Shown piece after piece: positions 55,245-58,607 of a stretch of 64,000 nucleotides of DNA (position 1 is the stretch's first letter; every line of letters begins with the position of its first letter). The translations under genes and the position numbers were made by a program. Source of the stretch: Escherichia coli (GTDB lineage Bacteria; Pseudomonadota; Gammaproteobacteria; Enterobacterales; Enterobacteriaceae). The stretch is from the NCBI RefSeq assembly GCF_003334385.1, contig NZ_QOWN01000023.1; one strand, given 5' to 3'. Under the pieces are notes generated by a model. The model saw only the letters and a list, made by a program, of their open reading frames with translations, did no database searches and was not told the DNA's origin.

Positions 55245-56299
<1,055 letters not shown>

Positions 56300-56344
56300 T
56301 TACTTGCGGTAGAAAAATAAAATTCGGCGCAATTCTAACAGGGA

Positions 56345-56360
56345 AAGCAAACGTTTGCGA
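56345..56360. promoter_or_regulatory. PurR operator (pur box) upstream of purMN
   Basis: AAGCAAACGTTTGCGA with 12-bp palindromic core GCAAACGTTTGC, ~65 bp upstream of purM start. Confidence 0.7.
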
Positions 56361-56535
56361 GACTGCTTTACACAACCTTTTTGCACGTCTTTTCCCCAGG
56401 CGCGCGGCGAAAGAAGACTTGTGCCAGGGTAAAGGTTAGTTTTCGGATGGAATAATCTTCTTTCATAACCATCTGAATATAAAATAACTTTATCTCAAAC
56501 CGTTATCATTTTGACTAAAGTCAACGAAAAGAATA

Positions 56536-56578
56536 TTGCCGCCTTGAAGAAAGGAGGTATAATCCGTCGATTTTTTTT
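56536..56578 (+). promoter_or_regulatory. upp promoter with T8 initially-transcribed tract (UTP-sensitive reiterative-transcription type)
   Basis: -35-like TTGCCG, 16 bp spacer, TATAAT at 56558-56563, then CCGTCGATTTTTTTTG. Confidence 0.6.
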
Positions 56579-56605
56579 GTGGCTGCCCCTCAAAGGAGAA
56601 AGAGT

Positions 56606-57232
56606 ATGAAGATCGTGGAAGTCAAACACCCACTCGTCAAACACAAGCTGGGACTGATGCGTGAGCAAGATATCAGCACCAAGCGCTTTCGCGAACTCGC
56701 TTCCGAAGTGGGTAGCCTGCTGACTTACGAAGCGACCGCCGACCTCGAAACGGAAAAAGTAACTATCGAAGGCTGGAACGGCCCGGTAGAAATCGACCAG
56801 ATCAAAGGTAAGAAAATTACCGTTGTGCCAATTCTGCGTGCGGGTCTTGGTATGATGGACGGTGTGCTGGAAAACGTTCCGAGCGCGCGCATCAGCGTTG
56901 TCGGTATGTACCGTAATGAAGAAACGCTGGAGCCGGTACCGTACTTCCAGAAACTGGTTTCTAACATCGATGAGCGTATGGCGCTGATCGTTGACCCAAT
57001 GCTGGCAACCGGTGGTTCCGTTATCGCGACCATCGACCTGCTGAAAAAAGCGGGCTGCAGCAGCATCAAAGTTCTGGTGCTGGTAGCTGCGCCAGAAGGT
57101 ATCGCTGCGCTGGAAAAAGCGCACCCGGACGTCGAACTGTATACCGCATCGATTGATCAGGGACTGAACGAGCACGGATACATTATTCCGGGCCTCGGCG
57201 ATGCCGGTGACAAAATCTTTGGTACGAAATAA
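56606..57232 (+). CDS. upp: Uracil phosphoribosyltransferase
   Basis: 208 aa from [20 protein letters not shown]; PRPP-binding loop [10 protein letters not shown]. Confidence 0.96.
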
Positions 57233-57247
57233 AGAATAAAAATAATT

Positions 57248-57278
57248 AAAGCCGACTTTAAGAGTCGGCTTTTTTTTG
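57248..57278 (+). terminator. Intrinsic terminator/attenuator between upp and uraA
   Basis: Stem AGCCGACT/AGTCGGCT followed by TTTTTTT. Confidence 0.7.
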
Positions 57279-57317
57279 AGTAAAGCGCCTATAACACATA
57301 ATACAGAGGATAATACT

Positions 57318-58607
57318 ATGACGCGCCGTGCTATCGGGGTGAGTGAAAGACCGCCACTTTTACAGACAATCCCGCTTAGTTTGCAACATTTGTTCGCCAT
57401 GTTTGGTGCAACCGTCCTGGTGCCCGTCTTATTTCATATTAACCCGGCGACTGTACTGTTATTTAACGGTATTGGAACGCTGCTGTATCTCTTCATCTGT
57501 AAAGGGAAAATTCCGGCTTATCTTGGTTCCAGCTTTGCCTTTATTTCACCGGTATTGTTACTGTTGCCGTTAGGGTATGAAGTCGCGCTGGGCGGCTTTA
57601 TTATGTGCGGCGTGCTGTTCTGCCTGGTTTCTTTTATCGTGAAGAAAGCGGGGACCGGCTGGCTGGACGTGCTGTTTCCACCTGCGGCAATGGGCGCAAT
57701 CGTTGCCGTCATCGGTCTGGAGCTGGCGGGCGTAGCTGCCGGTATGGCGGGTTTACTCCCGGCTGAAGGGCAAACGCCAGACTCCAAAACCATCATCATC
57801 TCTATTACCACCCTGGCGGTCACGGTTTTAGGTTCCGTGCTGTTTCGTGGTTTCCTAGCAATTATCCCGATTTTAATTGGCGTGCTGGTGGGGTACGCGC
57901 TCTCTTTCGCAATGGGAATTGTCGATACCACGCCGATTATTAATGCTCACTGGTTTGCGCTGCCAACCCTCTATACGCCGCGCTTCGAGTGGTTTGCCAT
58001 TCTGACTATTCTGCCAGCGGCGTTAGTGGTTATTGCCGAACACGTAGGGCACCTGGTAGTAACGGCTAATATCGTCAAAAAAGATCTGCTGCGCGATCCA
58101 GGTCTGCACCGTTCGATGTTTGCTAATGGCTTGTCGACCGTGATTTCCGGCTTCTTTGGCTCTACGCCAAATACTACTTACGGAGAAAACATTGGCGTGA
58201 TGGCGATCACCCGTGTTTACAGTACCTGGGTTATCGGCGGGGCGGCGATTTTCGCTATCCTGCTTTCCTGCGTCGGTAAACTGGCTGCCGCTATCCAGAT
58301 GATCCCATTGCCGGTGATGGGCGGCGTTTCGCTGCTGCTTTATGGTGTCATCGGTGCTTCCGGTATTCGTGTTTTGATCGAATCGAAAGTGGATTACAAC
58401 AAAGCACAGAACCTGATCCTGACTTCCGTGATTTTGATCATCGGCGTCAGTGGCGCGAAGGTAAACATCGGCGCGGCGGAGTTAAAAGGTATGGCGCTGG
58501 CGACCATCGTCGGTATCGGCTTAAGTTTGATCTTCAAACTGATCAGTGTGCTGCGCCCTGAAGAAGTGGTGCTGGACGCAGAAGACGCGGATATAACAGA
58601 CAAATAA
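57318..58607 (+). CDS. uraA: Uracil:proton symporter (NCS2 family)
   Basis: 429 aa from [17 protein letters not shown]; multi-TM. Confidence 0.94.

What the first reader, a model, noticed from the sequence alone, without database searches (positions are those of the whole stretch)
56536..56580. upp initiation region with a T8 tract
A good sigma-70 promoter (TTGCCG, 16 bp spacer, TATAAT) is followed by GATTTTTTTTG at the expected start site. This is the configuration for UTP-dependent start-site switching and reiterative transcription that regulates upp by pyrimidine availability.
Basis: partly seen in the sequence, partly recalled or inferred. Interest (0 to 1): 0.3.

Follow-up and report, generated by a model that had tools for sequence, protein, structure and literature searches.

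The report
Known UTP-sensing upp promoter of E. coli

Summary
TTGCCG (56536-56541), a 16-bp spacer, TATAAT (56558-56563), CCGTC, then G (56569), A (56570), T8 (56571-56578) and G lie 37 nt upstream of the upp ATG (56606). The 401 bp around it are 100% identical to E. coli K-12 MG1655.

This is the promoter on which Tu & Turnbough (1997) and Cheng, Dylla & Turnbough (2001) established UTP-sensitive start-site selection (G6 versus A7) coupled to UTP-dependent, non-productive reiterative transcription. Held papers quote the same 5'-GATTTTTTTTG.

Three independent lines agree:
- A genome-wide TSS data set puts the upp start on the G at 56569.
- The composite motif never occurs in 100 shuffles of the window.
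- In 111 of 120 upp loci, mostly from named Enterobacterales genera, TATAAT-N5-G-A-T(7-9) is almost invariant while the flanks drift.
- No Rfam family matches here, and the leader has no excess RNA structure.

Verdict: real feature, correct interpretation, already known, low interest.

The one mildly new by-product is tract length. It is T7 in about 8% of complete E. coli genomes, against 0.24% at a neighbouring T8 control tract. It ranges from 7 to 9 across Enterobacterales.

The parts
56536..56541 (+). -35 hexamer TTGCCG of the upp-uraA promoter
   Evidence: 4 of 6 matches to TTGACA, 16-bp spacer. In other Enterobacterales the equivalent position is a weakly conserved (A/G)TGGCG.
56542..56557 (+). 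16-bp spacer; its promoter-proximal part (GAAAGGAGG in E. coli, AAAAAGCGG consensus) is conserved across genera
   Evidence: information content is 1.0-2.0 bits at positions -9 to -1 relative to TATAAT, against 0.05-0.3 bits further upstream.
56558..56563 (+). -10 hexamer TATAAT (perfect consensus)
   Evidence: Present in 111 of 120 upp loci from other species.
56564..56568 (+). G+C-rich 5-nt discriminator CCGTC
   Evidence: Variants are CCGGC, CCCGC, CTCGC and CCGTC; the length is always 5 nt.
56569..56569 (+). Start site G6, the productive start favoured at low UTP
   Evidence: Position read. Kim et al. 2012 Table S1 gives TSS NC_000913:2618931(-), 194 reads, 5'UTR 37 nt, last base of the listed sequence G. 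G in 110 of 111 orthologous promoters. The G6/A7 naming is recalled from the Tu & Turnbough 1997 abstract.
56570..56570 (+). Start site A7, favoured at high UTP; its transcripts enter reiterative U addition and are released
   Evidence: Position read. A in 108 of 111 orthologous promoters. Mechanism from the literature.
56571..56578 (+). T8 tract (A8 on the template strand), the slippage site for UTP-dependent reiterative transcription
   Evidence: Quoted as GATTTTTTTTG in PMC7039003. Length is 7-9 in all 111 orthologous promoters. Title of Cheng et al. 2001.
56569..56605 (+). 37-nt upp 5' leader including the Shine-Dalgarno AGGAG (56594-56598)
   Evidence: No significant structure: z = +0.48, mean z = +0.73 over 75 orthologous leaders. 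No Rfam hit.
56606..57232 (+). upp, uracil phosphoribosyltransferase (208 aa)
   Evidence: WP_001295473.1.
57318..58607 (+). uraA, uracil permease, second gene of the regulated operon
   Evidence: L001 4019-5308 corresponds to window 57318-58607. Called upp-uraA in PMC7039003.

Best explanation
This is the sigma-70 promoter of the E. coli upp-uraA (uracil salvage) operon, and it senses UTP directly through RNA polymerase with no regulatory protein. Polymerase can start at G (56569, "G6") or at the adjacent A (56570, "A7"). When UTP is high, initiation at A7 is favoured, because the second nucleotide is UTP. The short AUUU... transcript then slips backwards on the A8 template tract, U residues are added repeatedly (AUUUUn), and the product is released without ever reaching upp. 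When UTP is low, initiation at G6 is favoured. Those transcripts largely escape slippage and are elongated into upp-uraA mRNA, so salvage capacity rises when pyrimidines are scarce. Shown here: sequence identity with the studied promoter, the exact geometry, the in vivo start on the G, and strong evolutionary constraint on -10/N5/G/A/T(7-9). Taken from the literature and not tested here: the UTP dependence, the poly-U products and the G6/A7 switch.
For: - 100% identity over 401 bp to MG1655; the region is present in 5425 of 5426 complete E. coli genomes, always upstream of upp.
- Geometry TTGCCG-16-TATAAT-CCGTC-G-A-T8-G; the composite motif occurs in 0 of 100 shuffles.
- Literature: PMC7039003 lists upp-uraA 5'-GATTTTTTTTG among promoters with long, non-productive reiterative RNAs. 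[quoted passage not shown] The titles of Tu & Turnbough 1997 and Cheng et al. 2001 state the mechanism and the requirement for the long T.A tract.
- An independent TSS-seq data set places the upp start on the G at 56569 with 194 reads.
- Phylogenetic footprint: 111 of 120 upp loci recovered by an Upp N-terminus pattern carry TATAAT-N5-[G 110/111]-[A 108/111]-T7-9. Columns beyond the tract fall to 0.1-0.6 bits.
- No alternative RNA element: no Rfam hit at the promoter or leader, and no excess folding energy.
Against: Nothing in the data contradicts it. The limits are as follows.
- The two primary papers are not in the held library, so the details (G6/A7 naming, direction of the UTP effect, tract-shortening results) rest on secondary quotations and on my recollection of the abstracts.
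- The TSS data set reports only the G start in one growth condition. It cannot show the aborted AUUUn products.
- A few orthologues lack one start base (E. albertii has T at position 6; Photorhabdus has G at position 7), so the exact G/A pair is not strictly obligatory.
Confidence: 0.96

Rival explanations
1. The U8 tract of the full-length leader pairs with the purine-rich Shine-Dalgarno region and controls upp translation, either instead of or on top of the transcriptional mechanism.
For: The E. coli leader MFE pairs U3-U11 with CAAAGGAGAAA. In 59 of 75 distinct orthologous leaders at least 5 U-tract bases are paired in the MFE.
Against: The pairing is weak, only A-U and G-U pairs at -5 to -10 kcal/mol. 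It is no more stable than shuffles: z = +0.48 in E. coli; mean z = +0.73 with none below -2 in 75 leaders. The partner segment differs between species, being sometimes the SD and sometimes the first codons. Any U-run will pair with any purine run, so the pattern carries no information. No Rfam family matches.
Confidence: 0.03
2. The promoter-like hexamers and the T run are a chance juxtaposition in an A+T-rich intergenic region with no regulatory meaning.
For: Taken singly, promoter-like sites (2 against 1.9 expected) and T8 runs (3 against 6.3 expected) are not enriched.
Against: The composite motif occurs in 0 of 100 shuffles. It is conserved in 111 of 120 loci across many genera while the flanks diverge. 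A TSS is mapped on the G, and there is published mutational work (titles).
Confidence: 0.005
3. The T/A tract is a protein-binding or DNA-curvature element (for example a nucleoid-protein site or an UP-like element) that serves the divergent purMN promoter or a repressor of upp.
For: It lies in a shared 310-bp divergent intergenic region (56297-56606), and A-tracts can bend DNA.
Against: The purM TSS maps about 245 bp away, at about 56325, with its own PurR-box-like palindrome at 56347-56358. The tract lies downstream of the upp start, in the transcribed region. Conservation is phased to the upp -10 with a fixed 5-nt discriminator, not to purM. The literature describes regulation without a repressor.
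Confidence: 0.01

Closest known systems
E. coli K-12 upp-uraA promoter (Tu & Turnbough 1997; Cheng, Dylla & Turnbough 2001)
   Same: It is the same sequence: 100% identity over 401 bp, the same GATTTTTTTTG initially transcribed region, and the same downstream genes.
   Different: Nothing; this is the type example itself.
E. coli codBA promoter (Qi & Turnbough 1995)
   Same: Same logic: UTP-sensitive start-site switching coupled to non-productive UTP-dependent reiterative transcription on a T tract, again in a pyrimidine-salvage operon.
   Different: Shorter tract (5'-ATTTTTTG, T6) and a different locus. It is not in this window.
E. coli pyrBI promoter (Liu, Heath & Turnbough 1994) and carAB P1 (Han & Turnbough 1998)
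   Same: UTP-dependent reiterative transcription at a T run close to the start, with the products released.
   Different: Only three T's (AATTTG; GTTTGC). UTP acts directly on the slip-or-extend choice without start-site switching. The regulatory range is smaller for carAB.
Bacillus subtilis pyrG (Meng, Turnbough & Switzer 2004)
   Same: Nucleotide-sensing reiterative transcription in the initially transcribed region.
   Different: It senses CTP and adds G's on a three-C template. The reiterated transcripts are productive and act by antitermination at a downstream attenuator. At upp the reiterated transcripts are dead ends.

Membership tests
UTP-sensitive start-site selection plus UTP-dependent reiterative transcription (upp/codBA class) | Sequence identity with the experimentally characterised E. 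coli K-12 upp promoter | tested here: met
   401 of 401 bp identical to MG1655 (H6). GATTTTTTTTG is quoted for upp-uraA in PMC7039003.
UTP-sensitive start-site selection plus UTP-dependent reiterative transcription (upp/codBA class) | Sigma-70 -10 hexamer placed so that two adjacent alternative start bases (G, then A) lie 6 and 7 nt downstream | tested here: met
   TATAAT 56558-56563, G 56569, A 56570. The 5-nt discriminator is invariant in length in 111 orthologues.
UTP-sensitive start-site selection plus UTP-dependent reiterative transcription (upp/codBA class) | Homopolymeric T run of at least 3 (non-template strand) beginning immediately after the downstream start base | tested here: met
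   T8 at 56571-56578. T7-T9 in all 111 orthologous promoters. The three-nucleotide minimum is stated in PMC6524683.
UTP-sensitive start-site selection plus UTP-dependent reiterative transcription (upp/codBA class) | Transcription actually starts at the head of the T tract in vivo | tested here: met
   Published TSS-seq table: NC_000913 2618931(-), 194 reads, 37-nt 5'UTR, sequence ending ...TATAATCCGTCG, which is window 56569.
UTP-sensitive start-site selection plus UTP-dependent reiterative transcription (upp/codBA class) | The controlled genes belong to pyrimidine metabolism | tested here: met
   upp (uracil phosphoribosyltransferase) and uraA (uracil permease) lie directly downstream.
UTP-sensitive start-site selection plus UTP-dependent reiterative transcription (upp/codBA class) | UTP-dependent shift between the two starts, and synthesis of released AUUUUn transcripts | not testable with these tools
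   This needs in vitro transcription or 5'-end mapping. It is reported in Tu & Turnbough 1997 (not held) and summarised in PMC12709180 and PMC7039003.
UTP-sensitive start-site selection plus UTP-dependent reiterative transcription (upp/codBA class) | A long T tract is required for regulation (mutational evidence) | not testable with these tools
   Stated in the title of Cheng, Dylla & Turnbough 2001; the paper is not held. Consistent with no orthologue in Enterobacterales having fewer than 7 T's.
Rfam cis-regulatory RNA leader or riboswitch | Match to a curated covariance model in the promoter or leader | tested here: not met
   There are no hits between 56000 and 57213. The only hits are weak, below-threshold ones on the upp terminator hairpin at 57214-57363.

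The most novel reading that the evidence does not exclude
The length of the slippage tract may be a naturally variable tuning knob. T7 is a genuine allele in about 8% of complete E. coli genomes, on at least three flanking haplotypes, which suggests recurrent slippage mutation. Across Enterobacterales the tract is held between 7 and 9. Lineages could therefore differ in the set-point or dynamic range of uracil-salvage regulation, and possibly in 5-fluorouracil sensitivity. The evidence does not exclude this. No phenotype was tested, and from memory of the Cheng et al. 2001 abstract the step from T8 to T7 has little effect.
Probability: 0.15. Interest if true: 0.25.

Novelty: already known. Interest (0 to 1): 0.06.

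Why it matters
The feature is a classic example of gene regulation without a regulator, in which RNA polymerase itself reads the UTP pool through start-site choice and transcript slippage. Finding it shows that the first-stage reader can recognise such signals from sequence alone. It adds nothing new for E. coli. The comparative result is a modest confirmation that the mechanism is general in the order: near-invariance of -10/N5/GA/T7-9 across Enterobacterales, and a real T7/T8 polymorphism within E. coli.

Tried and rejected
- Reading the primary papers (PMC179593, PMC94869), the MMBR review (PMC2415746) and the 2011 review (PMC3078970): none is held. I relied on held papers that cite and summarise them.
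- A full-text search for GATTTTTTTTG plus upp gave mostly irrelevant hits. One useful hit was a knockout primer containing this exact promoter sequence.
- An Rfam scan of 56000-57500 found nothing at the promoter or leader. It gave only sub-threshold hits on the upp terminator hairpin.
- RNA structure in the leader, as a rival translational mechanism, was rejected: z = +0.48 in E. coli and mean z = +0.73 across 75 orthologous leaders.
- An inverted-repeat search of the intergenic region at arm length 10 or more found nothing. The 12-bp PurR-type palindrome is too short for that setting and was read directly from the sequence.
- T7 in some E. coli assemblies as homopolymer sequencing error was rejected as the main cause. 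A control T8 tract 700 bp away is T7 in only 13 of 5427 records, against 439 of 5425 at the promoter.

Full report
**1. Observation**

The window reads ...AATATTGCCGCCTTGAAGAAAGGAGGTATAATCCGTCGATTTTTTTTGTGGCTGCCCCTCAAAGGAGAAAGAGTATG.... The elements are:
- -35 TTGCCG, 56536-56541
- a 16-bp spacer
- -10 TATAAT, 56558-56563
- discriminator CCGTC, 56564-56568
- G 56569 and A 56570
- T8, 56571-56578, then G 56579
- AGGAG, 56594-56598
- upp ATG at 56606

The consensus scan finds the same promoter with 10 of 12 matches.

Neither a promoter-like site nor a T8 run is unusual on its own. There are 2 promoter-like sites against 1.9 expected, and 3 T8 runs against 6.3 expected. The composite TATAAT-N5-GA-T7 occurs once in the window and in none of 100 dinucleotide-preserving shuffles, even with one mismatch allowed.

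**2. Identity of the locus**

Positions 56300-56700 are 100% identical to E. coli K-12 MG1655. The region is present once in 5425 of 5426 complete E. coli genomes, always on the chromosome and always under or next to upp.

The MG1655 annotation gives ppk1, purN and purM on the minus strand, with upp, uraA and hda diverging on the plus strand. The ORFs in the window agree with this.

**3. What is known**

The primary papers are:
[quoted passage not shown] Their citations were seen. Neither paper is in the held library.

Held papers summarise them:
- PMC7039003 lists "upp-uraA (5'-GATTTTTTTTG)" next to pyrBI (AATTTG) and codBA (ATTTTTTG). It describes these as promoters that make long reiterative RNAs and do not switch back to canonical transcription.
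- PMC6524683 gives the general rule that at least three T's shortly after the start are needed.

From my own recollection of the abstracts, marked as such:
- The two starts are named G6 and A7, counted from the -10 hexamer.
- High UTP favours A7, whose transcripts stutter and abort. Low UTP favours G6, whose transcripts mostly escape.
- Regulation declines gradually as the tract is shortened from 7 to 3 bp.

The geometry in the window (G at +6 and A at +7 after TATAAT) fits that naming exactly.

**4. Independent checks made here**

(a) In vivo start site. Table S1 of Kim et al. 2012 (PMC3415461) lists a upp TSS at NC_000913:2618931(-) with 194 reads and a 37-nt 5'UTR. Its "-50 + TSS" sequence is AGTCAACGAAAAGAATATTGCCGCCTTGAAGAAAGGAGGTATAATCCGTCG. 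The final G is window 56569, and 56606 minus 37 gives 56569, so coordinate and sequence agree.

(b) Phylogenetic footprint. Named genera include Citrobacter, Enterobacter, Klebsiella, Yersinia, Serratia, Pantoea, Erwinia, Dickeya, Pectobacterium, Providencia, Photorhabdus, Xenorhabdus and Edwardsiella, plus a few Pasteurellaceae. Results for the upstream regions:
- 111 of 120 carry TATAAT, a 5-nt discriminator, then G (110 of 111), A (108 of 111) and a T run of 7 (49 loci), 8 (48) or 9 (14). None has a shorter run.
- Anchoring on TATAAT forces those six columns and the first three T's to be invariant. The remaining T's, the G/A pair and the fixed discriminator length are free to vary, and they are nearly invariant.
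- Columns downstream of the tract and upstream of about -25 carry only 0.05-0.6 bits.

(c) No competing RNA element. Rfam gives nothing at the promoter or leader. The E. coli leader folds no better than shuffles, with z = +0.48. The MFE does pair the U tract with the Shine-Dalgarno region, and 59 of 75 orthologous leaders pair at least 5 U's with some purine run. However, the partner varies between species. The mean z-score against shuffles is +0.73 and no leader falls below -2. I treat this pairing as a trivial consequence of composition.

**5. Mechanism**

Best explanation, confidence about 0.96: RNA polymerase bound at this sigma-70 promoter chooses between G6 and A7 according to the UTP pool.
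- A7 starts give AUUU..., which slips on the A8 template tract. U's are added repeatedly and the RNA is released.
- G6 starts are extended into upp-uraA mRNA.
- Uracil salvage and uptake are therefore induced when UTP falls, with no repressor involved.

Shown here: identity with the studied promoter, the geometry, the in vivo G start, and evolutionary constraint on every element the model needs. Inferred from the literature: the UTP dependence, the poly-U products and their release.

**6. Comparison and novelty**

This is not a relative of a known system. It is the type example. codBA works the same way with a T6 tract. pyrBI and carAB use only three T's and no start switching. B. subtilis pyrG uses CTP-sensitive, productive G reiteration. 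The novelty class is "already known" and the interest is low.

**7. By-products**

Within E. coli the tract length varies. Exact-haplotype counts over about 75-81 nt among 5425 genomes are:

| Tract | Genomes |
|---|---|
| T6 | 4 |
| T7 | 439 |
| T8 | 4738 |
| T9 | 19 |

A control T8 run 700 bp downstream, in the upp terminator at 57270-57277, is T7 in only 13 records and T8 in 5339 of 5427. The promoter T7 allele is thus about 34 times more frequent than at the control tract. It also occurs on at least three flanking haplotypes. It is therefore mostly a real allele rather than homopolymer sequencing error.

Other side observations are listed under "noticed in passing".

Noticed in passing
window 56571-56578 (E. 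coli population): The T-tract length is polymorphic in complete E. coli genomes: T6 in 4, T7 in 439, T8 in 4738 and T9 in 19 of 5425. A control T8 tract at 57270-57277 is T7 in only 13 of 5427. The T7 allele lies on at least 3 flanking haplotypes, so it is probably a real, recurrent slippage allele and not sequencing error.
   Followed up: partly
L008-L127 (upp upstream regions): Across Enterobacterales the tract is T7 (49 loci), T8 (48) or T9 (14) and never shorter. Four Pasteurellaceae-type loci (L076, L080, L084, L099) keep a TAAAAT-like -10, a 5-nt discriminator and GA, but have only 3-4 T's before the run is interrupted.
   Followed up: partly
L010 (Escherichia albertii), L017 and L069 (Photorhabdus), L022 (Ca. 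Pantoea persica): These are rare departures from the G6/A7 pair. E. albertii NBRC 107761 has T in place of G6 (TATAATCCGTCTATTTTTTTT). Photorhabdus has G in place of A7. Ca. Pantoea persica has T at position 7. Under the model, the E. albertii change would remove the productive start.
   Followed up: no
L023, L038, L086 (Pectobacterium), L026 (Brenneria): About 75-135 nt of G+C-rich hairpins are inserted between the T tract and the Shine-Dalgarno sequence. The L023 leader folds at -40.3 kcal/mol with z = -1.77. The last hairpin is followed by a T5-T6 run and so looks like a terminator. This could be an added attenuator or a small repeat element.
   Followed up: partly
window 56549-56557 and 56564-56568: The spacer bases just upstream of the -10 (consensus AAAAAGCGG; GAAAGGAGG in E. 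coli) are almost as conserved across genera as the -10 itself, at 1.0-2.0 bits. The discriminator is always 5 nt long and G+C-rich. The reason for the spacer conservation is not explained by the reiterative-transcription model as I know it.
   Followed up: no
window 56345-56360 (minus-strand purMN promoter): A perfect 12-bp palindrome, GCAAACGTTTGC (56347-56358), matches the PurR operator core. It lies 20-35 bp upstream of the purM TSS, which Kim et al. 2012 place at NC_000913:2619175, equivalent to window position about 56325. It is the expected PurR box of purMN.
   Followed up: partly
window 57248-57277: An 11-bp-stem hairpin followed by T8 (terminator-like on the plus strand) sits between upp and uraA, although the two are described as one operon. 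It draws only sub-threshold Rfam hits (Trp_leader, STnc240). Kim et al. also list a weak internal TSS for uraA inside upp (2618609, 3 reads).
   Followed up: no
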